From Actinomycetes bacterium (GTDB lineage: Bacteria; Actinomycetota; Actinomycetes; JACCUZ01): DNA of 36,539 nucleotides. The translations under genes were made by a program, and so were the position numbers. A model generated the notes under the pieces. That model made no database searches. It had not been told where the DNA came from and saw only the letters and a program-made list of their open reading frames with translations. Shown in pieces: positions 13,969 through 34,827 of the stretch. Positions within the stretch are counted from its first letter, which is position 1. Each line of letters starts with the position of its first letter. Location of the stretch: contig JBOGDY010000001.1 of NCBI GenBank assembly GCA_050742955.1, forward strand, positions 1-36,539, given 5' to 3'.

Positions 13969-14940
13969 CTAGCCTGGGACCAGGACCGGATAGCGGTAGC
14001 GCAGCAGCAGGGGCAGGGTGAGGGAGGCGACCACGGCCTGCCGCCGTCGGCTCATGGCACGGGCCCATTCGTCGTCGGCCCGGATTGACACCTCACCGAT
14101 CGTGAACCGCCGCGGGTTGCCTGCGACGGTGTGATTGGCATGCAGTCGCACGGTCGCGCCGTCACCCATGGCTGGCACCTCTCGTTCCCCAAGCCACGTG
14201 CACACCCGTCGGAGCTCAGCCTCTGGCGCCACGACGAAGTCCTCGTAACGCACCGCCAGCCACCTACTGGCAGGGACGTGCCGGCACAGCAGCTCGCAGC
14301 CGAGATTGCTCTCCAGCCAACGACCGGCACTGTGTGTCAGAGACCGTTTCGCCATGTCACCGCGCCTGCCGTCGACGGTAGGCAAGGGCTTGACCCGCCC
14401 CCAGGAGAACGCGACGGCCCGCGGGTCGCGCACCAGATGCAGGACGTAGTGGTCGACCGACCGCAGTCCTCCGAGCACGGCGGCGTCGACGGGTCGTTTG
14501 GAAGCGTCGATCACCACCCGTGCCCCGGTGGTCGCAGCGATGGCGTCGATCAGGTCAGCGGTGTGTGATCGGAGCTGTACGACGTCGCGGGAGGCGCCTG
14601 TCTCACGATCGGCGGACCGGACCACGTGGACCCGCCGACTGCGCGCCGCTACCCGCCGCTGCACGGCGACGATCTCGGCAATGCGCTGACTCGGCAAGGC
14701 CTGTCCGGGCTCGGTGATCACGTCGCCGAGCGCCTTGCGCACGACTTCGGACCACTGCGGACAACGGGCCGGCGGCAGCCCGCAGCCACACGGTCGCTGT
14801 TCCAGCAGCCCGCGCTGCCACAGCCAACGCAGTTCGCCGACGTTGAGGAACCCCGGGATCTCGCCAAGGATCTGGGCCAGCAGTGTGCTGCCGCTTCGAC
14901 CCGGACCGACGATGGAGACCACTTTGACCGGCGCCGTCAT
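13969..14940 (-). CDS. Sulfotransferase family protein.
   Basis: It has an N-terminal PAPS-binding P-loop-like motif (VSIVGPGRSGSTLL) and a sulfotransferase-like body (HLVRDPRAVAFS). Confidence 0.78.
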   Translation of the reverse strand: MTAPVKVVSIVGPGRSGSTLLAQILGEIPGFLNVGELRWLWQRGLLEQRPCGCGLPPARCPQWSEVVRKALGDVITEPGQALPSQRIAEIVAVQRRVAARSRRVHVVRSADRETGASRDVVQLRSHTADLIDAIAATTGARVVIDASKRPVDAAVLGGLRSVDHYVLHLVRDPRAVAFSWGRVKPLPTVDGRRGDMAKRSLTHSAGRWLESNLGCELLCRHVPASRWLAVRYEDFVVAPEAELRRVCTWLGEREVPAMGDGATVRLHANHTVAGNPRRFTIGEVSIRADDEWARAMSRRRQAVVASLTLPLLLRYRYPVLVPG

Positions 14941-15395
14941 GTGACACCCCGTCCTTTGACGCCAGTCGGCGTGTGGATGAGCGCCGGAGCCCTCCTATGT
15001 GAGTTCAGGATCGGGCCCCGATGCTGAGGGGTCCATTGTGCATCGGTCCTAGTGCCCGCCGCAGTTTTTCGTGCCTGCGCGAGATCGCGTGGTGGGCGGT
15101 CGCGGCGGGAGTCGAGGCGCCCCTTGCCTCGGTTCACTCACCGCAGGCGCCGCCGCGCTGCCCCCGACTAGGCGACGGCTAGGCGGCTGCCGTTGACAGC
15201 CTGCTCGGCCAACTTCGGCCGCCGCAGCTTCGGCCGTCAGTTCCACGTGCCGTCGACAACTAATCCAGACCCGCTCTTCGACGGAATGCCGTCAACTGGC
15301 CCAAGGTGGGCATCGCAACAGGGCCGAAAGCCCTCCGGTCTGCCTCGGCGGTGGACCCATTCAAGGCGCTGCGCCTAGAGGCAGGGCGTCCCCAG

Positions 15396-15439
15396 GACCA
15401 TGCGTTGATGGTCATGGGGCCTGGCTAGATGGAGGCCCC
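15396..15439 (-). terminator. Two adjacent stem-loops downstream of the P-type ATPase gene.
   Basis: GGGGCC/GGCCCC stem (15416-15439, 12-nt loop) and GACCAT/ATGGTC stem (15396-15413, 6-nt loop). They begin 34 nt after the ATPase stop codon (15473). Confidence 0.4.
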
Positions 15440-15472
15440 GCGCGAGACTCTCCCGCAAGCCGCGTCACAGAG

Positions 15473-25123: not shown

Positions 25124-28060
25124 ATGTACCCGCAGCTCACTCCCCCGCTGCTCGCCGGGCTCGGCATCGCGCTCGGCATCGTCGCCTTCCTGATCCTCCG
25201 CCGGCCGGTGCTGCGGCGCCTCGCGTTGCGGCAGGTCCGCCGACGTCCCACCGAGGCCGTGCTCGTAGTCCTCGGCTCGGTCCTGGGCACGACGCTGATC
25301 GTGGCCAGCCTGGTCGTCGGCGACTCCCTGGACCGCTCGGTGCGCCAGTCGGCCTACGACGTGCTCGGACCCATCGACGAGATCGTCCGGTCGTCGTCGT
25401 CGGACGTCGGCGACCTCGCCGCCATCCGCCTGCACCGCCTGCGCGAGGATCCGGACGTCGACGGGCTGCTCACGGTGCGCGGCGACGCGGCCGCGGCCAC
25501 GCGTGGTCAGGGCGAGAACAGGGTCGCCTCCCCGCGGACTCTGGTCTGGGAGCTGGACTTCGCCGCCGCGCGCGGCTTCGGGGGAGCCGAGCCCTCGGGT
25601 CTGGATGCCGCGGACCCCGGACCCGGGCACGTCGTCGTCAACACCACTCTGGCCGACGAGCTCGGTGCCGGGACCGGGGACCGGATCACGTTCTTCCTCT
25701 ACGGCCGCCTGACGGAGTTCACGGTCTCAGACGTGGTCCCCGCCCAGGGCCTTGCCGGGATGGGGCTCGGCGCGAGCGTCAACCGCAACGCCTTCTTCTC
25801 GCCTGGCACGCTCACGGTCGCCGCACGGCTGGCAGATCGTGAGCCGACGAGCTCGACCCTGGTGTCCAACCGGGGTGGGGTGGAGAGCGGCGAAGCACTC
25901 ACCGAGACGGTCAGCGCCAAGATCGACCGCGCGCTGGGCCCGCTCGCGACCGCGGGTGCCGCGGTGACCGCACCCAAGCAGGAGGTGCTGGACGCGGCGG
26001 AGGAGACCGGCGCAGTGCTGGGGTCGCTGTTCCTCTTCATCGCCAGCTTCGCCATCATCGCCGGCGTCCTCCTGCTGGTGAACATCTTCGTGATGCTCGC
26101 CGAGGAGCGAAAGGGGCAGCTGGGGATGCTGCGAGCCATCGGCATGCGGCGCCGCCGGGTCACCGGAGAGTTCTCCATCGAGGGCGCCGTCTACGGCGCC
26201 GTGGCTTCCCTGCTCGGCGCGGCGCTCGGCGTCGCCGTCGGACGGCTCGTGGTCGTTCTCGCCGTCAACGTCCTCAACGGCTACGAGCGCGGCGACAACC
26301 AGCTGGACATCGTGTTCGACGTCCGCCCGGCCAGCCTGGTCAACGGGATCGCCGCCGGCTTCCTGATCGCCTTCGTGGCCGTCGTGCTCACCAGCGTTCG
26401 CATCGCCCGCATCAACATCATCGCGGCCATCCGCGACCTGGACCCCACGACGCCGCCGCGGTCACGGCGTCGGCTCAGCGTGCTGTCCGCGGCGCTCACC
26501 GCCCTGTTCCTGGCAGCGTCGGTCCCGGCAGTCGCGTCAAGCGCGGGCGCCTCGACGTACCTCTTCCCGGCGCTCGTCGCCGTGTCCGCGATCCCGCTGC
26601 TGAGGCGGGTGGCTCCCGCGAAGCACGTCACCACCGGCGTCTCGGTGGCCGTGCTCGCCTGGGGACTCGGCGCCCACCTCGTCCGCCCACACATGTTCGA
26701 CGACGCGTCTACCGCTACCTACGTCGTCCAGGGGACCATGCTCTCCTTCGCCGCCGTAGTCCTGCTCAGCCAGTACCAGTGGCTGGTGCTGCTGCCGTTG
26801 CGCCCCCTCGTTTCGCGTCCCACCGAGGCCGGACTGGCAACGCGGCTGGCCATCGCCTACCCGACCGCCCGCCGGTTCCGCACCGGTGCGACGCTGGCGA
26901 TGTACTGCATCGTCGTCCTCGTCATCGTGCTGCTTGCCCAGATCTCGGCGGTCATCCGGTCGGGGGTCGACACAGCAGTCAGCGATGCATCCGCCGGATG
27001 GACCCTCCGCGCCGACTTCAACCCGAGCACACCACTGCCCGACATCACCAGCTCCGTCACCCAGGGGCGTTTTGCCGGCTCCATCGAGGACTCCGCCCCA
27101 CTCCTGACGGCCGCCGGGACCGGGGATGACCCGCTGGGGCGCACGACCGCTCCGCTGCCCGTGCTCGCTATCGGGGTGCCGGGCGAGATCGTCGGTCGGC
27201 AGCCTGCTCTCAGCGACCGGCTCGACTCGCTGCCGGACGACGAGACGGCCTGGCGGCTCGTGCTGGGCGACGCGCGCTACGTCCTGGTCGATGCCTTCTA
27301 CGGCTCCACCGGGGGACCCCAGGGCAAACCGATCACCCCCGGCGACCCCGTGACGTTGACCGACCCGCGCACCGGCAAGACCTCCGATCGGGTCATCGCC
27401 GGCGTCATCAAGGACGGCACCGCGTTCTACGGCGTCAGCGCGGGCGAGTTCCGGTTCCCCGTGGTGATGGGCCAGCCGGCCGTCCATCTGACGTTCGGCT
27501 CGGAGGCACGCTTCTCGAGCCTGCTGCTGCGGACTGCCGCCGGGGTCGACCGGGCGGAGCTCGTCCGGCGGATGCAGGGCGCCCTGCTCGCTTACGGCGT
27601 CGTCGTCACGGACATACCGGAGGCAGTGCGGGACATGTACGCCGCCAACACGCAGATGTTCCGGCTGATGCAGGGCTACCTGGCGCTCGGCCTCCTCGTA
27701 GCGATCACCGGTCTCGGAGTCATCATGGTGCGGTCCGTCCGTGAACGGCGCCGAACCATCGGTGTGCTGCGTGCACTGGGCGTCCGTGCCAGGACCGTGC
27801 GCCGCGCCTTCCTCGCGGAGAGCACGTTCATCGCGATCGAGGGTGTCGTCGTGGGTGTGCTGCTGGGTGTGCTCACGACCTGGCTCCTCTACCGGAACAG
27901 CCCTGCGTTCGCGGGCCTGGACGGTCCCTACCCGATCGCCTGGCAGGAGATCTCCGTAACTGTCGGGACCGCCCTGGTGGCGTCCTTCGTGGCCACGCTG
28001 CTCCCGGCACGGCGCGCGGCCCGGATCCGACCGGCGCTCGCCGTCCGCGTGCCGGAGTGA
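25124..28060 (+). CDS. Large FtsX-family ABC transporter permease with duplicated FtsX modules (~978 aa).
   Basis: ORF 24884..28060. ATG 25124 lies 6 nt after the ATPase stop. It repeats a TM-cluster architecture with a large extracytoplasmic domain and has FtsX-like segments (LRAIGMRRRRV, LRALGVRARTVRRAFLAESTFIA). Confidence 0.85.
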   Translation: MYPQLTPPLLAGLGIALGIVAFLILRRPVLRRLALRQVRRRPTEAVLVVLGSVLGTTLIVASLVVGDSLDRSVRQSAYDVLGPIDEIVRSSSSDVGDLAAIRLHRLREDPDVDGLLTVRGDAAAATRGQGENRVASPRTLVWELDFAAARGFGGAEPSGLDAADPGPGHVVVNTTLADELGAGTGDRITFFLYGRLTEFTVSDVVPAQGLAGMGLGASVNRNAFFSPGTLTVAARLADREPTSSTLVSNRGGVESGEALTETVSAKIDRALGPLATAGAAVTAPKQEVLDAAEETGAVLGSLFLFIASFAIIAGVLLLVNIFVMLAEERKGQLGMLRAIGMRRRRVTGEFSIEGAVYGAVASLLGAALGVAVGRLVVVLAVNVLNGYERGDNQLDIVFDVRPASLVNGIAAGFLIAFVAVVLTSVRIARINIIAAIRDLDPTTPPRSRRRLSVLSAALTALFLAASVPAVASSAGASTYLFPALVAVSAIPLLRRVAPAKHVTTGVSVAVLAWGLGAHLVRPHMFDDASTATYVVQGTMLSFAAVVLLSQYQWLVLLPLRPLVSRPTEAGLATRLAIAYPTARRFRTGATLAMYCIVVLVIVLLAQISAVIRSGVDTAVSDASAGWTLRADFNPSTPLPDITSSVTQGRFAGSIEDSAPLLTAAGTGDDPLGRTTAPLPVLAIGVPGEIVGRQPALSDRLDSLPDDETAWRLVLGDARYVLVDAFYGSTGGPQGKPITPGDPVTLTDPRTGKTSDRVIAGVIKDGTAFYGVSAGEFRFPVVMGQPAVHLTFGSEARFSSLLLRTAAGVDRAELVRRMQGALLAYGVVVTDIPEAVRDMYAANTQMFRLMQGYLALGLLVAITGLGVIMVRSVRERRRTIGVLRALGVRARTVRRAFLAESTFIAIEGVVVGVLLGVLTTWLLYRNSPAFAGLDGPYPIAWQEISVTVGTALVASFVATLLPARRAARIRPALAVRVPE

Positions 28061-28115
28061 CCGCCGCACCGGGCGAGCAGGGTCTCGCGGGCAGGGTCTC
28101 CGGCCTCGTTCCAGC

Positions 28116-28129
28116 GTGACCTTCGGCCC
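28116..28129. promoter_or_regulatory. DosR/DevR-type box B4 upstream of the CBS-BON-PNPOx gene.
   Basis: GTGACCTTCGGCCC, centred 76 nt upstream of ATG 28198. The 16-mer GTGACCTTCGGCCCTG is repeated exactly, in reverse complement, at 33553-33568. Confidence 0.55.
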
Positions 28130-28197
28130 TGACAGCGCGACGGTTGCGGTCCCTACCGTGGAGGCGTCGAAGGCCCGCTCCTCCACGGAGGTTCGCT

Positions 28198-29298
28198 ATG
28201 CGCGCTCCCGAGTTCATGTCGGCACCCGTGGTCACCGTGACGCCGCTGACCCCGATCACCGAGGCTGGGGCGTTGCTCCTCGGCCATGACATCACCGCGG
28301 CACCGGTCGTCGACGACGACCAGCGGCTGGTAGGCATCGTCAGCGAGTCCGATCTGCTCCGCGGTCGTGTGGGACCGGACCCGCGCACCCATGCGCTGCC
28401 CACATCCATCGACGAGTCGGAGCCACCGCACACGGTGGGCGAGGTGATGACGCACAAGGTCGTGGCGCTGCCCTACACGGCCGACGAGGCCGACTTCGCC
28501 GGCGCCATGCTCGACCATCGGGTCAAGAGCGTCCCCGTCGTGTCCGGCGGCCGGGTCGTCGGCATCGTGAGCGTCAGCGACCTGCTGCGCACAAGGGTGC
28601 GCAGTGACGACGACATCGCGACGGATGTCCGCGCACGCCTCCGGGAGTACGCCGAGGGCCGCGAGCCATGGACGACCACAGTCGCCGACGGGGTCGTGAC
28701 GATCGCCGGACCGATGGCGGCACCGCAGCGACGGGTCGCCGTGCTCCTCGCCCAGACCGTGCCCGGGGCGGTGCGGGTCCGCACCGACGCGGGAGCAGAA
28801 CATGCCCCGCCCGACCGGTCCGGGCGTCCCCTGACAGCACCGGCGGACCATCGCGAGCTGCGGGTCCTCGGCCTCGAGGAATGCTTGGACCGGCTGGCCG
28901 GAGTGCCCGTCGGGCGGCTGGCCTTCATGCACGACGGCGAGCCGACGGTGCTGCCGGTCAACCACGGCGTGGACGGCCTCGACGTCGTCTTCCGAACCAC
29001 CTGGGGTGCCAAGCTGCAGGTGGCCCAACACCAGGGACAGGTGGCGTTCGAGGTCGACGGCTGGGATAGCGACACGGAGTGCGGTTGGAGCGTGCTGGTC
29101 AAGGGCACCATCGGCATCGTCTACGAGACCGAGGACACCGACCGCTACGACAGCCTCGGCGTGCCCTCCTGGACCGGACTGGACGACCAGGCGTTCTGGC
29201 TCCGGCTACGACCAGCGGAGGTCACCGGCCGCGAGTTCGGGCCGCGGGCGCCGCGGGAAGACCTGGCTGACCCACGTGTCGCTCCCCCGCATCAGTGA
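28198..29298 (+). CDS. Fusion protein: CBS pair, BON-like domain and a pyridoxamine 5'-phosphate oxidase family (Pyridox_ox_2-type) domain.
   Basis: ORF 28144..29298. ATG 28198 is preceded by GGAGG. The N-terminal two CBS repeats include VVDDDQRLVGIVSESDLL and VVSGGRVVGIVSVSDLL. The middle is BON-like (DIATDVRARL...VADGVVTIAGPM...VPGAVRVRT). The C-terminus is the PNPOx split-barrel type (ECLDRLAGVPVGRLAFMHDGEPTVLPVNHGVDGLDVVFRTTWGAKL...GWSVLVKG...LRLRPAEVTGREF). Confidence 0.82.
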   Translation: MRAPEFMSAPVVTVTPLTPITEAGALLLGHDITAAPVVDDDQRLVGIVSESDLLRGRVGPDPRTHALPTSIDESEPPHTVGEVMTHKVVALPYTADEADFAGAMLDHRVKSVPVVSGGRVVGIVSVSDLLRTRVRSDDDIATDVRARLREYAEGREPWTTTVADGVVTIAGPMAAPQRRVAVLLAQTVPGAVRVRTDAGAEHAPPDRSGRPLTAPADHRELRVLGLEECLDRLAGVPVGRLAFMHDGEPTVLPVNHGVDGLDVVFRTTWGAKLQVAQHQGQVAFEVDGWDSDTECGWSVLVKGTIGIVYETEDTDRYDSLGVPSWTGLDDQAFWLRLRPAEVTGREFGPRAPREDLADPRVAPPHQ

Positions 29299-29336
29299 GC
29301 GGCAGCGGGGCCAACGACGAACCCTCGGCGTACGTG

Positions 29337-30230
29337 TCACGCCGTTGGCCGGTGGTCGTGCACGATGGCGACCGGGCTGGTCGCGCGGTGGAGGACGCCG
29401 TGGCTCACCGACCCGAGCAGCAGGCTTCGCAGCGCGCCCCTGCCGCGGCATCCGACGACGACGAGTCGCGCTTCGCGTGCTGCCGCGACGAGCGCCGGGG
29501 TGGCGTGCGACTGAAGAGTCTTCAGCTCGACAGGCACAGCGGGGTGCTTCTCGCGCCAGGGGGCCAGGGTCTCGTCCAGCATCGCCAGCTTCCTCTCGGC
29601 CGTGAGGTCCGGGTCGGGCATGACCGGGATCCGGATCGCGGGGCCGTTCGGCAGCGGCACGGTCCACGTGTGCAGGGCCGTCAGCGGTTCACCGGTCTCA
29701 GCGGCGTACCGGAAGGCGTAGTCGATCGCCGACTGCGCGGACGGTGACGTCTCGACGCCGACGACGACGCCGTGTCGGGTGGGCTCCGCCTCCCCCGGCA
29801 CGGGGACCGCCACCACCGGAGCGTGCGCGTGCGTGGCCACGTGCAGGGTCGTGGATCCGATGACAAGGTCGGCGAACCCACCCGTGCCGCGCGTGCCCAG
29901 CACGACAGTGTCCGCGTGTCCGGACTCGTCGACCAGCGCATCGACGGCCGAGCCCGCCTCGAGTCGCGTCGAGACCTGAACCCCGGGGTAGGCCTGACGG
30001 GCCTGTGCCTCTGCTGCGTTCATCATCCGCTGCATCGCCTCGCGCAGGCCGTTCCCGAAGTCCGAGTAGTAGCCGCCGGCGCGGATGTCGTAGATGGACG
30101 GCTCGTAGGCGTGTGCGAGCCGCACCGGCGCCTGTCGTCGGGCGGCGAGCTCCAGGCCCCAGGCCAGTGCTGCTTCGCTCGGCGGCGATCCGTCGATGCC
30201 GATGACGATTGGTTCGCGTGCGTCGCTCAT
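29337..30230 (-). CDS. Tandem universal stress protein (two UspA domains).
   Basis: ORF 29337..30287. The internal ATG at 30230 is preceded by AGGAGG. It has duplicated USP modules (VIGIDGSPPSE...VLGTRGTGGFADLVIGSTTLHVATHAHAPVVAV and VVGVETSPSA...VVGCRGRGALRSLLLGSVSHGVLHRATSPVAIV). Confidence 0.9.
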   Translation of the reverse strand: MSDAREPIVIGIDGSPPSEAALAWGLELAARRQAPVRLAHAYEPSIYDIRAGGYYSDFGNGLREAMQRMMNAAEAQARQAYPGVQVSTRLEAGSAVDALVDESGHADTVVLGTRGTGGFADLVIGSTTLHVATHAHAPVVAVPVPGEAEPTRHGVVVGVETSPSAQSAIDYAFRYAAETGEPLTALHTWTVPLPNGPAIRIPVMPDPDLTAERKLAMLDETLAPWREKHPAVPVELKTLQSHATPALVAAAREARLVVVGCRGRGALRSLLLGSVSHGVLHRATSPVAIVHDHRPTA

Positions 30231-30333
30231 GACGCCTCCTTGCCTGCCGAAGCGCCGGGCATCCGCTGCCCGTACGGACCAGCACACTCCGTCGCCCGCC
30301 CTGCAGACCAGGGCCGATCGCCGCCCCGCCGGG

Positions 30334-30347
30334 GTGACCTTGGTCCC
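30334..30347. promoter_or_regulatory. DosR/DevR-type box B2, on the USP-proximal side of the USP/GH65 divergent region.
   Basis: GTGACCTTGGTCCC, one mismatch from the perfect palindrome of B1 apart from the central dinucleotide. It is centred 110 nt upstream of the USP ATG (30230). Confidence 0.6.
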
Positions 30348-30370
30348 GCGCGGCCGGTCGTCGGCGCGAT

Positions 30371-30384
30371 AGGACCAAGGTCAC
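30371..30384. promoter_or_regulatory. DosR/DevR-type box B3, on the GH65-proximal side of the same divergent region.
   Basis: AGGACCAAGGTCAC, which matches the reverse complement of B2 at 13 of 14 positions. It is centred 125 nt upstream of the GH65 ATG (30503). Confidence 0.55.
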
Positions 30385-30502
30385 GGCATTTGCCTCCGTG
30401 GGGCCCTTGGCGGCGAGCCCTTGCGGCCGGTTACGTGAGGCGTGACCGTCCGTTCCCGCCGAGGATCTGTGGGCAGGTGGCTACGTTGTCGAGGGGTGTC
30501 GG

Positions 30503-32911
30503 ATGACCGAGTGGCTGCTGCGCTACGAGGGGTTCGAGCCCGAGGAGGAACGGGTTCGCGAGGTGCTGTGCACGCTCGGTAACGGCCGGTTCGCCACCCG
30601 TGCTGCCGCTCCTGAGTCCTGCGCCGACGGCGTGCACTACCCGGGCACCTACGCAGCAGGCATCTTCAACCGCGTCCCGGCCGACATCGAGGGCCATCAC
30701 GTCGAGCACGAGAGCATGGTCAACCTGCCGGACTGGCAGTCCCTCCGTTTTCGGGTGGAGGACGGGGACTGGCTGACCCCGTCCAGTCCCACGACGACCG
30801 ACTACGTCCAGGAGCTGGACCTTCGGAGGGGCCTGCTGACACGACGGTTCCGCGTCGTGGACGGTGAGGGCCGGCGGACGGCAGTCGCTCAGCGCAGGTT
30901 CGTCTCGATGGCCGACCCGTTCGCCGCCGGCCTCGACGCGACGTTCGTGGCGGAGAACTGGTCCGGACGCCTGGTTGTGCAGTCCGGCATCGACGGAGAT
31001 GTGGCCAACCGTGGAGTCGCCCGTTATACCGGGCTCGGGGACGTGCACCTGCGGGTGACCGGGGCGGAACGGCTCGGCTGCTCCGTGGTCGCGCTCGATG
31101 TCGAGACGCGCCAGTCCCGGGTTCGGGTGAGCATGGCCGCTCGACACCGAGTGCTGCTGGACGGACAGGTCTCAGCGACCCCGCAACGACCCCGGACAGT
31201 CCGTAAGAGCGGCTACATCGGGCTGGAGTTCTGCCTCGGCGTACGAGAGGGCGAGCAGCACACCCTCGAGAAGGTCGTGGCCGTCTACACCTCGCGTGAC
31301 CGAGCCGTGAGCGAACCAGGCGCCGCGGCGCGGACCGAGGCAGGGAGCCTGCCGGAGCTCGATCATCTCCTCTCACGTCACGTGCTCGCGTGGGACCACC
31401 TCTGGGAACGGTGCTACGTCCGGATCGACGCGGCCGAGTCGGCGACTCGCGCGCTCAACCTGCACCTGTTCCACCTGCTCCAGACGGTCAGCCGGCACAG
31501 CATGGAGCTCGATGTCGGCATCCCCGCCAGGGGACTGCACGGCGAGGCGTACCGCGGCCATGTGTTCTGGGACGAGATCTTCGTGTTCCCGTTCCTGAAC
31601 CTGCGAATGCCGGAGCTTGCCAGGGCCCTGGTGCTCTACCGCTGGAGGCGGCTGCCCCAGGCCCGGGTGGCGGCCAGGGAGGCCGGGTTCCGGGGCGCGA
31701 TGTTCCCCTGGCAGAGCGGGTCCGACGGTCGTGAGGAGGCCCCCGCGGTGCACCTCAACCCACGGTCTGGCCACTGGATCACCGACAACTCGCACCTGCA
31801 ACGGCACATCAACGTGGCCGTGGCCTACAACACGTGGCGGTACTACGAGGCCAGCGGCGACCGTGACTTCCTTTCCCAGTTCGGCGCCGAACTGATCCTG
31901 GACATCGCGCAGTTCTGGGCGAGCGCGGCAAACTACGACCGGGTCGGCGACCGCTACGACATCCGCAATGTGATGGGTCCGGATGAGTACCACGACGGCT
32001 ACCCCTGGCGGGATCGTCCCGGCCTGGACAACAACACGTACACGAACCTGATGGTGGTGTGGACCCTGCGCAGAGCGCTCGCCTGCATCGCGCTCCTGCC
32101 CGACCGACGCCGGTCGGAGCTGCTGAGCCTATTGGGTATCCGGCGGGAGGACGTGGAGCGCTGGGAGCACATGACTCGGAAGATGCGGCTGTGCTGGGTC
32201 GCCGCCAACGTGCTTGCCCAGTTCGAGGGCTTCGAGCGGCTGCGTCCGTTCCCGTGGACCGAGTACGTCGAGCGGTATGGCGACATCACCAGGCTGGACC
32301 GGATCCTGGAGGCCGAGGGCGACTCGCCCAACAACTACCAGCTCGCGAAGCAGGCCGACGTACTGATGCTCTTCTACCTGCTCTCTGCGGACGAGCTGGC
32401 GGACCTCCTGCACCGGCTCGGATACCAGTACACGCCCCGGCTGATCCCCAGCACGGTGGACTTCTACCGTCGGTGCACCTCCCACGGCTCCACACTCTCC
32501 AAGGTCGTCCATGCCTGGGTCATGGCGCGAAGCGACCGCCCGGCGGCCTGGCAGTTCTTCCTCGACGCCCTCGAGGCGGACGTCGCGGGCCATCTTGGCG
32601 GCACGACGGGCGAGGGGATCCATCTGGGCGCGATGGCCGGCACCCTTGACCTCCTCCAACGCGCCTTCACCGGTCTGGAGACGCGCGGCGAGGTGCTGCA
32701 CCTCGAGCCGTCCCTGCCCGACGAGCTCGCCTCTATGAGCTTCCGACTCCATTACCGCCACCATCACGGCCTAGAGGTCTATGTCGACCATGACCGGGTC
32801 ATCATCAGCGGGCGGGCCCACCCCGCGCCACCGTTGACGGTGCGGGTCCGCGGCGAGGACCACCGCCTCGACCCGAGCGGTGCCGTCGAGGTGCCGCTCA
32901 CGTCTCGTTGA
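30503..32911 (+). CDS. Glycoside hydrolase family 65 protein (maltose/trehalose/kojibiose phosphorylase-type).
   Basis: At 802 aa it has the typical GH65 length. The N-terminus WLLRYEGFEPEEERVREVLCTLGNGRFATRAA and the catalytic-region motif GHVFWDEIFVFPF are characteristic of actinobacterial GH65 proteins. Confidence 0.88.
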   Translation: MTEWLLRYEGFEPEEERVREVLCTLGNGRFATRAAAPESCADGVHYPGTYAAGIFNRVPADIEGHHVEHESMVNLPDWQSLRFRVEDGDWLTPSSPTTTDYVQELDLRRGLLTRRFRVVDGEGRRTAVAQRRFVSMADPFAAGLDATFVAENWSGRLVVQSGIDGDVANRGVARYTGLGDVHLRVTGAERLGCSVVALDVETRQSRVRVSMAARHRVLLDGQVSATPQRPRTVRKSGYIGLEFCLGVREGEQHTLEKVVAVYTSRDRAVSEPGAAARTEAGSLPELDHLLSRHVLAWDHLWERCYVRIDAAESATRALNLHLFHLLQTVSRHSMELDVGIPARGLHGEAYRGHVFWDEIFVFPFLNLRMPELARALVLYRWRRLPQARVAAREAGFRGAMFPWQSGSDGREEAPAVHLNPRSGHWITDNSHLQRHINVAVAYNTWRYYEASGDRDFLSQFGAELILDIAQFWASAANYDRVGDRYDIRNVMGPDEYHDGYPWRDRPGLDNNTYTNLMVVWTLRRALACIALLPDRRRSELLSLLGIRREDVERWEHMTRKMRLCWVAANVLAQFEGFERLRPFPWTEYVERYGDITRLDRILEAEGDSPNNYQLAKQADVLMLFYLLSADELADLLHRLGYQYTPRLIPSTVDFYRRCTSHGSTLSKVVHAWVMARSDRPAAWQFFLDALEADVAGHLGGTTGEGIHLGAMAGTLDLLQRAFTGLETRGEVLHLEPSLPDELASMSFRLHYRHHHGLEVYVDHDRVIISGRAHPAPPLTVRVRGEDHRLDPSGAVEVPLTSR

Positions 32912-32921
32912 GGCAGTTTGG

Positions 32922-33326
32922 TCACAGGTCGTGCTCGGCCAGCTCGGCCAACGTGGCCGTGACCAGCCAAGCAGGGGTCAGGTCCCTGGCCGACATCAGA
33001 CGCAGCTCGAGCGGGATGAGCACGTCGCGCTGCAGCGACCGGAGCCGCTCCTCACCCACGTTCTGACCGACCAGCTCGCGCGCCACGAAGGCGCGGGCAA
33101 CGCGCCAGTCGAGGGCTTCCATCTCCTCCGGCACGGGGTCGGCCGCCAGCTCGGCCACGCGGCTCGCCGAGCCGTGTGCCACCGCGTTGATCCACATCCA
33201 TGGTGCGACCTGGCCGCTTTCACCACGCGACCGGAGCCGCTCGAGGTAGCGACCCCCGAGAAAGGCCTCGACCTCATCGGCCAGCCCCGAGCCGACCTTC
33301 GGTGCGGCCCAGCGAAGGAAGGACAT
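32922..33326 (-). CDS. Hypothetical protein with an ambiguous start.
   Basis: ORF 32922..33437. Candidate starts are ATG 33326, GTG 33338 (9 nt after GGAGGG) and ATG 33437. No motif was recognised. GC3 is moderately high throughout. Confidence 0.45.
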   Translation of the reverse strand: MSFLRWAAPKVGSGLADEVEAFLGGRYLERLRSRGESGQVAPWMWINAVAHGSASRVAELAADPVPEEMEALDWRVARAFVARELVGQNVGEERLRSLQRDVLIPLELRLMSARDLTPAWLVTATLAELAEHDL

Positions 33327-33554
33327 CCAGCTTCGCACCGTCCTGCTCCCTCCTGAGGCGCCCTGTGACTGGCACCAGCACATCGCGCAGGCTGACCCCG
33401 CCACCACGGGCAGATGCCCCGACGCTGATGGGGCCAACGTCCTCCGTGCACGGGACGGACGGCACGGGGCACACAGCGAGAGGCGGGAGGGTCCACCGCC
33501 GCTCAGGCAGCGGGCCGAGACATCGATTCCAGCCCGTCCGCGGTTCGCGAAACA

Positions 33555-33568
33555 GGGCCGAAGGTCAC
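33555..33568. promoter_or_regulatory. DosR/DevR-type box B5 upstream of the hypothetical gene at 32922.
   Basis: GGGCCGAAGGTCAC is the reverse complement of B4 (GTGACCTTCGGCCC). The exact 16-mer is shared with 28116-28131. Confidence 0.5.
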
Positions 33569-33607
33569 TTGCCGGCGTTCTTCAGCGCGGCACCGGTCGG
33601 CGGTCGG

Positions 33608-33982
33608 TCAGCCGAACCACGGCGTGGCACCCTGGATGGCGGCTGTCCGCCGTGACCGGCCAGGGATCTCTCGACTCGTCGCAGTGTGGGACACCAGGGT
33701 GCGACCCTGCGGTTCAACCGTAAGGCTGCCTCCCAGCCGGCCGACCAGGTCCTGAAATCGGGCCGTGACGGCTGCGACCGCTGGTTCGGCGTTCTGGGCC
33801 CCACGGACGTCGACGACGATCGTGCGCGCACCGGCCTCGACGAGCCGGCACAGCTCTATGGACAGGTCCATCGCCGTCGTGTCATCTGCGAGCCCACGAA
33901 GCACGACGGTGGCGTGCGGACCCTGACGTCGGGTGTTGATCAACATGGCCGTCGCCTCATCCCTGAAAGTGCCCCGTTCCAT
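33608..33982 (-). CDS. STAS-domain (anti-sigma-factor-antagonist-like) protein.
   Basis: ORF 33608..34060. Candidate starts are ATG 33982 and ATG 33946. The pattern HATVVLRGLADDTTAMDLSIELCRLVEAGARTIVVDVRGA...LVGRLGGSLTV resembles SpoIIAA/RsbV-type STAS proteins. This is a weaker call than the others. Confidence 0.5.
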   Translation of the reverse strand: MERGTFRDEATAMLINTRRQGPHATVVLRGLADDTTAMDLSIELCRLVEAGARTIVVDVRGAQNAEPAVAAVTARFQDLVGRLGGSLTVEPQGRTLVSHTATSREIPGRSRRTAAIQGATPWFG

Positions 33983-34063
33983 CAGACAACCGGGACGGGG
34001 CGATCGGGACCAGAGCACAAGGACCCGAGTGGACACGGCACCTCCCCGCAACGGCCGCAAGTC

Positions 34064-34077
34064 GGGACGGATGGCCC
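34064..34077. promoter_or_regulatory. DosR/DevR-type box B6 between the divergent STAS and hsp20 genes.
   Basis: GGGACGGATGGCCC, centred 72 nt upstream of the hsp20 ATG (34142) and 88 nt upstream of STAS ATG 33982. Confidence 0.45.
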
Positions 34078-34141
34078 TACCCCGCGCTAGCCGGTGGCGA
34101 TGCCATGGAGGCGTGGGTTCCTACGTCATGAGGAGGATGAC

Positions 34142-34579
34142 ATGGGTGCTGTGTCTAGGCGCGAAACGACGTCGTCACCGCTGGCCGACTTGATGAACTG
34201 GATCGAGTCGGGGTGGCCGAACATCGGCGGGTGGCCGGGCGAGACCAGTCAAGCGATCCGGATCGAGGACCGGCTCGAGGACGACCGTTACGTCGTCCGC
34301 GCCGAGCTGCCCGGCATCGACCCGGAGAAGGACGTGCAGATCACCATCGCCGACGGTGTGCTCAGCGTCTCCGCGGAGCGCCATGAGCAGGTCAGCGAGA
34401 AGGGCAGGTCCGAGTTCCGCTATGGGTCCCTGCTGCGACGCGTGAACCTGCCCAAGGGCGCGCAGGAGGAGTCGGTCGTGGCGCGCTACGAAGACGGGAT
34501 CCTGGAGATCTCTGTGCCGGTCGCGGTGGACCGGCCAGAGCCGCGGTCCATCCCGGTGTCGCGCGCTCCATCCGGCTGA
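34142..34579 (+). CDS. Hsp20 / alpha-crystallin family small heat-shock protein (HspX-like).
   Basis: ORF 34094..34579. ATG 34142 is preceded by AGGAGGA. It has the alpha-crystallin core IRIEDRLEDDRYVVRAELPGIDPEKDVQITIADGVLSVSAER...GSLLRRVNLPKGAQEESVVARYEDGILEISVP. Confidence 0.9.
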   Translation: MGAVSRRETTSSPLADLMNWIESGWPNIGGWPGETSQAIRIEDRLEDDRYVVRAELPGIDPEKDVQITIADGVLSVSAERHEQVSEKGRSEFRYGSLLRRVNLPKGAQEESVVARYEDGILEISVPVAVDRPEPRSIPVSRAPSG

Positions 34580-34593
34580 AGCCCTACGGACAC

Positions 34594-34622
34594 GGGAGGT
34601 CGCGGCTGGGGCGCGACCTCCC
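34594..34622 (+). terminator. Strong stem-loop after hsp20.
   Basis: Perfect 11-bp stem GGGAGGTCGCG / CGCGACCTCCC with a 7-nt loop, 15 nt after the stop codon. Confidence 0.6.
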
Positions 34623-34827
34623 GCCCGGGCGCACGATCGAGGAGGTGCCAGCCATGGGTGAGAAGGAGCAACACGAGGCGAGCGCCGAAGCACGCCGCCA
34701 TCTGACGTCCCGGCCTACCGAGTCGGGCAAGCACGAGGACCTGGTCCAGCGGCGACTCGGTGTGGCCTTCTATCGCGAGGTTCACGGTCGGGACCAACAG
34801 CCCAGCCAAGCGGACCCAGGAGGAACC

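What the first reader, a model, noticed from the sequence alone, without database searches (positions are those of the whole stretch)
28077..28131. Box B4 shares an exact 16-mer with a site 5.4 kb away and is preceded by a tandem 10-bp repeat
GTGACCTTCGGCCCTG (28116-28131) recurs exactly, in reverse complement, at 33553-33568. Both copies are intergenic and lie upstream of genes. Immediately upstream of B4, GCAGGGTCTC occurs twice (28077-28086 and 28091-28100, 14-bp period). This could be extra degenerate half-sites or a second regulator's operator. An exact 16-mer repeat in non-coding DNA is unlikely by chance in 36 kb, so it argues for selection on the site.
Basis: seen in the sequence. Interest (0 to 1): 0.6.

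Follow-up and report, generated by a model that had tools for sequence, protein, structure and literature searches.

The report
Two DevR/DosR-type dormancy operator boxes
The repeated 16-mer is two separate binding sites for the well-known hypoxia/dormancy regulator DevR (DosR/OsdR), each in front of its own stress gene in an uncultured high-GC actinobacterium, so it is an ordinary new example of a known switch.

Summary
Both observations are real. GTGACCTTCGGCCCTG sits at 28116-28131 (+) and 33553-33568 (-), and these are its only two copies in the 3.05-Mb assembly. GCAGGGTCTC sits at 28077 and 28091.

The 16-mer is a DevR/DosR/OsdR-type operator box:
- In the OsdR frame, B4 differs by one base from a S. 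coelicolor site that OsdR binds in EMSA.
- A weight matrix built from 13 other boxes of this genome scores the two copies 14.9 and 15.5 bits.
- The genome encodes a DevR ortholog with an identical recognition helix, next to a DevS-like kinase.
- The B4 box, a CTGA(C/T) -35-like element and a TAnCnT -10-like element are the only conserved blocks upstream of the orthologous PNPOx-type genes in two other genera.
- Relatives of the small gene downstream of the second copy also carry boxes.

The flanks of the two copies are unrelated, so this is not a duplication or a mobile repeat. Identical boxes at two promoters also occur in S. coelicolor.

The statistical argument holds only for intergenic DNA. 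Over the whole window, exact 16-mer repeats are common.

The 10-bp tandem is near chance level and is not conserved. Its second copy could supply the half-site of a weak secondary box 22 bp upstream of B4.

The parts
28115..28130 (+). Box B4 in the 16-nt OsdR frame, CGTGACCTTCGGCCCT. It is the promoter-proximal primary DevR/DosR-type box of the CBS-BON-PNPOx gene.
   Evidence: It scores 14.9 bits with a leave-out matrix from 13 other boxes of this genome, where genome-wide P(>=14) is 7e-6 per position. It is 15/16 identical to the EMSA-bound S. coelicolor SCO5978/5979 site CGGGACCTTCGGCCCT. It is conserved in G024 and G010.
28129..28134 (+). -35-like hexamer CTGACA, overlapping the last base of the box core.
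   Evidence: Read from the sequence. CTGACT in G024 and CTGATC in G010 sit at the same place. This is inference: there are no TSS data, and the generic promoter scan found nothing because the spacer is 19 nt.
28154..28159 (+). -10-like hexamer TACCGT (TANNNT type), 19 nt after the -35-like hexamer. It puts the B4 centre at about -43 relative to the inferred TSS near 28166.
   Evidence: TAGCGT in G024 and TAGCCT in G010 align with it in an otherwise unconserved spacer. This is inference.
28092..28109 (+). Candidate secondary (cooperative) Dev box CAGGGTCTCCGGCCTCGT, centred 22 bp upstream of the B4 centre. Its left half is the second GCAGGGTCTC copy.
   Evidence: It matches 7 of 8 core positions (G2 G3 G4 C6 / G11 C13 C15), where background P(>=7) is 0.0019 per position. 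The matrix score is only -7.6 bits and the centre is CC instead of A/T. It is not conserved in G024 or G010.
28077..28086 (+). First copy of GCAGGGTCTC. The 16-mer starting at 28079 matches 6 of 8 core positions at -36 bp from B4, which is out of helical phase.
   Evidence: matrix score -10.9 bits. It is probably not a functional site on its own.
28091..28100 (+). Second copy of GCAGGGTCTC.
28198..29298 (+). Target gene: CBS pair - BON - Pyridox_ox_2 (PNPOx-like) fusion protein, 366 aa, with SD GGAGG at 28187-28191.
   Evidence: Pfam CBS 5e-26, Pyridox_ox_2 1.3e-24, BON 3.7e-4. Translation.
33554..33569 (-). On the minus strand it reads AGTGACCTTCGGCCCT. It is a distal primary-type DevR/DosR box upstream of the small gene 32922-33338.
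   Evidence: It scores 15.5 bits with the leave-out matrix. With the independent S. coelicolor matrix it is the best site in the whole window, at 13.4 bits. The homologous gene in G029 carries CGGGACCTTCGGCCCG preceded by the same CGCCGGC. Boxes precede homologs in at least 8 other genomes.
33451..33466 (-). Additional Dev-type box (minus strand CGTGCCGTCCGTCCCG), the distal member of a tandem pair closer to the gene.
   Evidence: 10.6 bits and 7 of 8 core positions. It is 22 bp from the next box.
33429..33444 (-). Additional Dev-type box (minus strand GAGGACGTTGGCCCCA), the proximal member of the tandem pair. Its centre is about 98 nt upstream of GTG 33338.
   Evidence: 10.5 bits and 7 of 8 core positions.
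32922..33338 (-). Target gene of the second copy: a conserved small hypothetical protein (138 aa, no Pfam or NCBIfam match).
   Evidence: Homologs occur in 9 related genomes, in several of them about 12-14 kb from a PNPOx homolog.

Best explanation
The 16-mer is a full binding site (Dev box) for the genome's DevR/DosR/OsdR-type response regulator. It is present once in each of two different dormancy-island promoters.

When the DevS-like kinase phosphorylates DevR under hypoxia or redox stress, a DevR dimer binds each box. Each box has one half-site GTGAC, the other half-site GGCCC, and A/T at the centre.

At 28115-28130 the box abuts and overlaps a -35-like CTGACA. It lies about 43 bp upstream of the inferred transcription start, so bound DevR would recruit RNA polymerase and switch on the CBS-BON-PNPOx gene. 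It may be helped by cooperative binding to a weak secondary site 22 bp upstream, and that site contains the second GCAGGGTCTC copy.

At 33554-33569 the same box variant lies far upstream (215 nt) of a small conserved gene. That gene also has a tandem pair of weaker boxes closer in, so the 16-mer copy there acts as a distal high-affinity site.

The two copies are identical because the motif has little freedom and this GACCTTCGGCCC variant is a favoured one. They are not copies of one another.

Shown here: motif match, presence of the regulator, cross-genus conservation, regulon context. Inferred: binding, activation, promoter hexamers, cooperative secondary site.
For: 1. The window is a dormancy-type island: tandem Usp x2, CBS proteins, Hsp20, Acg-like nitroreductase, DUF1918, PNPOx, P-type ATPase.

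2. Contig C18 encodes a DevR ortholog. Its best PDB hit is M. tuberculosis DevR 3c3w (E 2.3e-73), and the recognition helix FLAEKTVKNYVS is identical. It sits next to a GAF-GAF histidine kinase, with its own box upstream.

3. The S. coelicolor OsdR consensus is AGGGCCGATCGGCCCT. That paper's Table 1 lists CGGGACCTTCGGCCCT (SCO5978/5979, bound in EMSA) and AGGGACCTTCGGCCCC twice. All share the 12-mer core GACCTTCGGCCC with this 16-mer.

4. Matrices that exclude the two sites score them highly:
- Own-genome leave-out matrix: 14.9 and 15.5 bits, where P(>=14) is 7e-6 per position.
- S. coelicolor matrix: 10.1 and 13.4 bits; the second copy is the top site of the window.

5. G5 and C7 (M. tuberculosis numbering), which are essential for DevR binding, are present in both halves. 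The centre is TT. The one deviation, T for G4 in one half, is the type that only partly lowers binding (PMC3177182; PMC5069765).

6. Phylogenetic footprint. Upstream of the PNPOx-type orthologs in G024 and G010 (about 70% nucleotide identity in coding DNA), the only conserved blocks are GTGAC-TTCG-CCCTGA and TAnCnT.

7. In the own genome, 4 of the 7 copies of the 12-mer core are intergenic and lie upstream of dormancy-type genes, including a WS/DGAT (tgs-like) gene. The other 3 appear to be coding, one in an ETFGP stretch typical of aldehyde dehydrogenases.

8. Across 39 family genomes the 16-mer with up to 1 mismatch occurs 18 times, against 4 for the reversed control. There are never more than 4 per genome.

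9. Tandem boxes at 21-23 bp spacing recur in relatives' promoters, as in M. tuberculosis.
Against: - There are no binding, expression or transcription-start data for this organism.
- The generic promoter scan found no sigma-70-like promoter at either site. The -35/-10 assignment at B4 uses a 19-nt spacer.
- The second copy has no recognisable -10 at the proper distance and no partner box at +/-21-23 bp, so how it acts is least certain.
- One half-site is GTGAC rather than GGGAC. That is also the half-site of Crp-type sites, which exist in this genome.
- The candidate secondary box scores -7.6 bits and is not conserved.
Confidence: 0.85

Rival explanations
1. Composite operator. The conserved GTGAC half is read by a Crp/FNR-family regulator (TGTGA-N6-TCACA type), and the GGCCC half, or the whole site, by DevR. 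The two promoters would then integrate cAMP/redox and hypoxia signals, or the two regulators would compete.
For: - Iterating the matrix on intergenic hits drifts into a clear Crp-like family, GTGAC-N6-GTCAC. DevR and Crp motifs differ at only two symmetric positions.
- The genome has one clear Crp-family gene, on C227.
- The suboptimal T of GTGAC is kept at this promoter in three genera.
Against: - The other half (GGCCCT) matches the Crp half-site TCACA poorly, and Crp dimers need both halves.
- No Crp/FNR gene lies in the two dormancy islands.
- At the small-gene promoter, relatives carry GGG, not GTG.
- A G4 change in one half is tolerated by DevR.
Confidence: 0.08
2. The two copies are related by descent. 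A promoter fragment was recently duplicated, or one site was gene-converted onto the other.
For: They share 16/16 identity, and the orientation relative to the downstream gene is the same.
Against: - Identity stops abruptly at both ends.
- Each site has its own orthologous counterpart at the same promoter in other genera: B4 in G024 and G010, and the second copy in G029 with a shared CGCCGGC flank.
- In G024 the two promoters carry boxes that differ at 3 of 16 positions.
Confidence: 0.03
3. Chance repeat, dispersed repeat family, or an RNA element (terminator or hairpin) with no regulator binding.
For: Exact 16-mer repeats are common in this GC-rich window: 13 seen, 4-6 expected. The second copy lies 40 nt after the stop of a possible ORF.
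Against: - Intergenic-only expectation is 0.017.
- There are only 2 copies in the genome.
- RNA folds are no better than shuffles: z = +0.80 and -0.46.
- No terminator-like sites and no Rfam family.
- The motif, regulon and conservation evidence is strong.
Confidence: 0.03

Closest known systems
Streptomyces coelicolor OsdR (SCO0204) binding sites (Urem et al. 2016, PMC5069765)
   Same: Both are 16-nt palindromic boxes of the type AGGGCCGATCGGCCCT. Three predicted S. coelicolor sites share the exact core GACCTTCGGCCC. One of them (SCO5978/5979, EMSA-bound) differs from B4 by a single base. S. coelicolor also has an identical 16-mer at two promoters. The regulon content is similar: Usp, nitroreductase, PNPOx, zinc ADH.
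   Different: One half-site here is GTGAC (T at position 3), and other boxes of this genome use GGTCCC halves. The lineage's motif therefore sits between the Streptomyces (GGGCCG) and the mycobacterial (GGGACT) versions. Nothing has been tested experimentally here.
Mycobacterium tuberculosis DevR (DosR) Dev boxes and promoter architecture (Chauhan et al. 2011, PMC3177182)
   Same: - G5 and C7 are present in both halves, with A/T at the centre.
- The proximal box overlaps -35, centred near -43.
- Tandem boxes about 21-22 bp apart, with degenerate secondary sites.
- An isolated distal box, as at Rv1733c.
- The regulator is 60%-class identical to DevR, with an identical recognition helix.
   Different: The half-site sequences differ (GTGACC/GGCCC against GGGACT). 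The secondary site at B4 is only a candidate. The second copy is 103 bp from the nearest tandem pair. The target genes (a CBS-BON-PNPOx fusion and an uncharacterised small protein) are not M. tuberculosis regulon genes as such.
Actinobacterial Crp sites (TGTGA-N6-TCACA)
   Same: Same length and spacing. The GTGAC half of the 16-mer equals a Crp half-site.
   Different: The other half does not fit Crp, and the gene context is that of the dormancy regulon.

Membership tests
DevR/DosR/OsdR operator (Dev box) | A 16-20 bp inverted repeat with the G-G-G..C core, G5 and C7 (18-mer numbering) in both half-sites, and A/T at the centre | tested here: met
   As an 18-mer, B4 is GC GTGACCTTCGGCCC TG. G5, C7, G12 and C14 are present and the centre is TT. 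G4 is T in one half only. Leave-out matrix scores are 14.9 and 15.5 bits.
DevR/DosR/OsdR operator (Dev box) | A cognate NarL-family regulator with the DevR recognition helix, plus a DevS-type GAF kinase in the same genome | tested here: met
   C18:5200-5859 against PDB 3c3w DevR gives E 2.3e-73, with helix FLAEKTVKNYVS identical. A GAF-GAF-HK lies at C18:1329-3167.
DevR/DosR/OsdR operator (Dev box) | Located upstream of dormancy-regulon-type genes and enriched in intergenic DNA | tested here: met
   The island holds Usp, CBS, Hsp20, nitroreductase and PNPOx genes. Top matrix hits are mostly intergenic. The 12-mer core also lies upstream of tgs-like and Acg-neighbour genes.
DevR/DosR/OsdR operator (Dev box) | Proximal box overlapping -35, centred about -42/-43 from the transcription start | tested here: inconclusive
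   B4: the arrangement CTGACA-19-TACCGT puts the box centre at about -43, and it is conserved in G024 and G010. There are no TSS data, and the generic scan was negative. The second copy has no recognisable -10 at that distance.
DevR/DosR/OsdR operator (Dev box) | At least two boxes in tandem, about 21 bp apart and in helical phase | tested here: inconclusive
   B4 has a 7-of-8-core candidate at -22 bp, but its matrix score is -7.6 bits. The second copy is isolated; a 22-bp tandem pair (10.6 and 10.5 bits) lies 103 bp closer to the gene.
DevR/DosR/OsdR operator (Dev box) | Bound by phosphorylated DevR, and target induced by hypoxia/NO/CO | not testable with these tools
Crp/FNR-type operator (TGTGA-N6-TCACA) | Both half-sites match TGTGA / TCACA | tested here: not met
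   The left half CGTGA fits 4 of 5 positions. The right half GCCCT fits 2 of 5. Genuine Crp-like sites of this genome have both halves.
Dispersed repeat (REP/MITE-like) | Many copies with extended flank similarity, at non-promoter locations | tested here: not met
   There are 2 copies in the genome and the flanks are unrelated. Related genomes hold 0-4 copies each.

The most novel reading that the evidence does not exclude
The GTGAC half-site, kept at the PNPOx-type promoter in three genera although GGGAC would fit DevR better, marks a composite operator. It would be shared by DevR and the Crp-family regulator, or it would be a deliberately weakened box that sets late or graded induction. A subset of dormancy promoters would then integrate a second signal.
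Probability: 0.08. Interest if true: 0.5.

Novelty: new member of a known kind. Interest (0 to 1): 0.15.

Why it matters
The finding extends the DevR/DosR/OsdR dormancy switch, with its box, its overlap with -35 and its tandem architecture, to an uncultured actinobacterial family. It assigns two poorly known genes to that regulon: a CBS-BON-PNPOx fusion and a small conserved hypothetical protein. It gives no new mechanism. Its value is for annotation and for comparative work on how the box sequence drifts between the mycobacterial and Streptomyces versions.

Tried and rejected
- Rfam, whole window: no family.
- RNA folding of the tandem-repeat region and of the second copy: no better than shuffles.
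- Terminator and promoter consensus scans: nothing at either site.
- Iterative matrix refinement on intergenic hits drifted into Crp-like GTGAC-N6-GTCAC sites and was abandoned. A fixed leave-out matrix replaced it.
- The similar-looking AGGGCCGAAAGCCCT at 15320 has a 13-nt core spacing and scores 5.6 bits. I read it as a hairpin-like element, not a box.
- The same-genus genome G001 has no match to 26500-34600, so close-relative comparison was impossible.
- The word-based protein search for the small gene gave only 2 hits.
- GCAGGGTCTC as a genome-wide motif: 26 copies, 19% intergenic, no other tandem. Rejected as a second regulator's operator.
- The search for related loci on genome contigs returned only distant relatives at 50% identity or less (Acidimicrobiia, Nitriliruptorales, Propionibacteriaceae MAGs). 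It did not name the organism.

Full report
**Observation.** GTGACCTTCGGCCCTG occurs at 28116-28131 on the plus strand and at 33553-33568 on the minus strand, with no mismatch. GCAGGGTCTC occurs at 28077-28086 and 28091-28100. The window is the whole of contig C1 of a fragmented assembly: 3.05 Mb, 72% GC, 616 contigs, 84% complete. The 16-mer has only these two copies in the assembly.

In this GC-rich window, 13 canonical 16-mers are repeated. Markov simulations give 4-6 by chance, so an exact 16-mer repeat as such is not remarkable. It becomes unusual only when both copies must fall in the 2.46 kb of intergenic DNA, where the expectation is 0.017 (5 of 300 simulations).

The close 10-bp tandem is weaker still. 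The window has five such repeats, against 1.7 expected.

**Context.** GC3-based gene calling and Pfam show a dormancy-type island:
- tandem-Usp gene 23426+
- ABC/FtsX transporter ending at 28060
- CBS-BON-PNPOx fusion, 28198-29298
- second Usp gene, 29337-30287 (-)
- GH65 phosphorylase
- small hypothetical gene, 32922-33338 (-)
- Hsp20, DUF1918 and an Acg-like nitroreductase

B4 lies 56 nt after the FtsX stop and 67 nt before ATG 28198. The second copy lies 215 nt upstream of GTG 33338 (SD GGAGGGAG). It is also 40 nt after the stop of a weak STAS-like ORF, 33608-33946, which has Pfam STAS_2 E = 0.014 and GC3 = 0.75.

**The regulator.** Contig C18 is a second dormancy island. It holds Acg-like nitroreductases, a Usp, a phosphoketolase, an acetate kinase, a CtpF-like ATPase and NarJ/NarI. 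It also holds a GAF-GAF histidine kinase and a 219-aa NarL-type response regulator. The regulator's best match among solved structures is M. tuberculosis DevR (3c3w, E 2.3e-73), and the DNA-recognition helix FLAEKTVKNYVS is identical. A box lies upstream of this gene (C18:5938).

**What the 16-mer is.** The published OsdR consensus of S. coelicolor is the 16-nt palindrome AGGGCCGATCGGCCCT (PMC5069765). In that frame B4 is CGTGACCTTCGGCCCT (28115-28130), and the second copy reads AGTGACCTTCGGCCCT on the minus strand (33554-33569).

Table 1 of that paper lists CGGGACCTTCGGCCCT, between SCO5978 and SCO5979. This is one of the intergenic regions that OsdR bound in EMSA. The table also lists AGGGACCTTCGGCCCC at two different promoters, SCO0167/0168 and narG2. 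So B4 is one base away from an experimentally bound site. The core GACCTTCGGCCC is shared. An identical 16-mer at two promoters of this regulon has a precedent.

Two matrices that exclude the sites score them highly:
- A matrix from the S. coelicolor sites alone scores the second copy 13.4 bits, the best site in the window. It scores B4 10.1 bits. The S. coelicolor sites themselves score 11.3-18.6.
- A matrix from 13 other boxes of this genome, with B4 and the second copy left out, scores them 14.9 and 15.5 bits. Only 7 in a million genome positions reach 14.

In M. tuberculosis numbering, G5 and C7, which are essential for DevR binding, are present in both halves, and the centre is TT. The one deviation is T for G4 in one half. 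That kind of change gives a 'less severe' defect in M. tuberculosis and about 50% binding in S. coelicolor (PMC3177182; PMC5069765).

**Conservation.** The same-genus genome lacks the island. Other genera of the family have the genes at about 70% nucleotide identity.
- Upstream of the full-length ortholog in G024, the box reads GTGACCTTCGaCCCTGAC.
- Upstream of a stand-alone PNPOx homolog in G010, it reads GTGACtTTCGGCCCTGAT.

In a three-way alignment of the promoters, the only conserved blocks are GTGAC-TTCG-CCCTGA and a TAnCnT hexamer. The region of the GCAGGGTCTC repeats is not conserved.

The arrangement is:
- own genome: CTGACA-19-TACCGT
- G024: CTGACT-17-TAGCGT
- G010: CTGATC-19-TAGCCT

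This places the box centre about 43 bp upstream of the inferred start. That is the position of promoter-proximal Dev boxes in M. tuberculosis, for example -42.5 at tgs1. It is an inference from sequence. The generic sigma-70 scan found nothing, and no transcript data could be obtained.

Homologs of the small gene 32922-33338 occur in nine related genomes, in several of them about 12-14 kb from a PNPOx homolog. Nearly all are preceded by Dev-type boxes, often two at 21-23 bp spacing. In G029 the box is CGGGACCTTCGGCCCG, preceded by the same CGCCGGC as in this window. The second copy is therefore ancestral to its own promoter.

In G024 the two promoters carry boxes that differ at three positions. 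Together with the abrupt end of identity at both flanks, this argues against duplication or gene conversion.

**Is the exact identity itself meaningful?** The chance that two independent sites drawn from the motif are identical is about 1e-3 to 2e-3 per pair with the S. coelicolor matrix and about 1e-4 with the own-genome matrix. S. coelicolor shows one identical pair among 325. With 8 boxes in the window and about 20 in the genome, an identical pair is uncommon but not surprising.

Across 39 genomes of the family, the 16-mer with at most one mismatch occurs 18 times, against 4 for the reversed control. Exact copies occur in two other genera:
- in G024, between an OtsA-type trehalose-6-phosphate synthase gene and a phosphoglucomutase gene
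- in G012, in front of a small zinc-ribbon gene

It is a favoured box variant, never a multi-copy repeat.

In the own genome the 12-mer core occurs seven times:
- Four copies are intergenic: the two in the window, one upstream of a WS/DGAT (tgs-like) gene, and one next to an Acg-like nitroreductase.
- Three appear to be coding, one in an ETFGP stretch typical of aldehyde dehydrogenases.

**The 10-bp tandem.** GCAGGGTCTC has 26 copies in the genome, with no intergenic enrichment and no other tandem. It forms no significant RNA structure (z = +0.80). It is not conserved in G024 or G010. A second regulator's operator is therefore unsupported.

However, M. tuberculosis DevR promoters always have at least two boxes, tandem and in helical phase. 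The secondary boxes are degenerate and need little more than G4, C7 and G12. The 16-mer starting at 28093 (AGGGTCTCCGGCCTCG) matches 7 of the 8 core positions exactly 22 bp upstream of B4. The background probability is 0.0019 per position, so roughly 0.01 for the in-phase offsets.

Its matrix score is poor (-7.6 bits) and its centre is CC. It could bind only cooperatively. The first copy, at -36 bp, matches 6 of 8 and is out of phase.

I rate the secondary-site reading of the second copy at about 40%. The exact repetition of ten bases is most likely a small slippage duplication or chance.

**The second copy's mode of action is the least certain part.** It has no partner box at +/-21-23 bp and no recognisable -10 at the right distance. 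Between it and the gene lie two further boxes 22 bp apart, at 33451-33466 and 33429-33444. They score 10.6 and 10.5 bits, and the proximal centre is about 98 nt from the start codon. The 16-mer copy is 103 bp further upstream. This resembles the isolated distal box of Rv1733c that Chauhan et al. discuss in terms of looping.

**An open detail.** Iterating the matrix pulled in a distinct family of Crp-like sites, GTGAC-N6-GTCAC. The genome has one clear Crp-family gene, on C227. DevR and Crp motifs differ at only two symmetric positions, so the 16-mer is formally a GTGAC/GGCCC hybrid. The T is kept at the PNPOx-type promoter in three genera.

Against a composite site:
- The other half fits Crp badly.
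- Relatives have GGG at the small-gene promoter.
- A single G4 change is tolerated by DevR.

I give the composite or tuned-site idea about 8%.

**Verdict.** The interpretation that the site is under selection as an operator is right. Its basis, the rarity of a 16-mer repeat, holds only for intergenic DNA. The thing itself is two ordinary DevR/DosR/OsdR boxes of a known sequence variant, in a new lineage.

Noticed in passing
window 33429-33466 (minus strand): Two Dev-type boxes 22 bp apart (10.5 and 10.6 bits) lie inside the stretch that a longer form of gene 32922 starting at TTG 33437 would encode or abut. With the SD GGAGGGAG before GTG 33338 and the start positions in G024 and G029, this favours the short 138-aa form.
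   Followed up: partly
window 28156-28189: The 5' leader of the CBS-BON-PNPOx gene has a perfect 9-bp stem, CCGTGGAGG...CCTCCACGG (-30.8 kcal/mol, z = -1.77). Its 3' arm (CCTCC) abuts the real SD GGAGG at 28187-28191. This may control ribosome access. G024 has a different leader hairpin.
   Followed up: partly
window 14162-14181 and 34642-34661: An exact 20-nt inverted repeat, GAGGTGCCAGCCATGGGTGA. At 34642 it covers part of the SD and ATG 34654 of the long form of the DUF1918 gene. The other copy lies inside the sulfotransferase gene. A 20-mer repeat is well beyond chance for this window.
   Followed up: no
window 14941-15472: An unusually long (532 nt) intergenic region with locally lower GC. 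It has a GGGC-CGAAA-GCCC hairpin at 15321-15333. It shares a 12-mer (AACAGGGCCGAA) and a 13-mer (CGGCGGTGGACCC) with the region around the second 16-mer copy. No Rfam match.
   Followed up: partly
own genome, outside the window: C5:23474, C56:8799, C68:5504, C121:1261, C126:117, C149:2895, C153:5465, C317:830: A dispersed palindromic repeat, (A/T)TGATCACGGGACCGTGATCATT, flanked by units of the form CCCCTGACCGCGGCCAATT-GCCGCGGTCAGGGG. There are at least 8 copies. It scores as a false Dev box and looks like a REP/MITE-type element.
   Followed up: partly
own genome: C183:3256, C100:763, C429:1907, C206:2432, C134:519 and others: A separate set of Crp-like sites (TGTGA-N6-TCACA type) in intergenic DNA. 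There is a single clear Crp-family gene at C227:2533-2754.
   Followed up: partly
L075 (G010:C17:40720-40900) compared with window 28115-29298: A stand-alone PNPOx gene in G010 has the same box/-35/-10 promoter as the CBS-BON-PNPOx fusion in this genome and in G024. The promoter therefore travelled with the PNPOx module across a fusion or fission event.
   Followed up: partly
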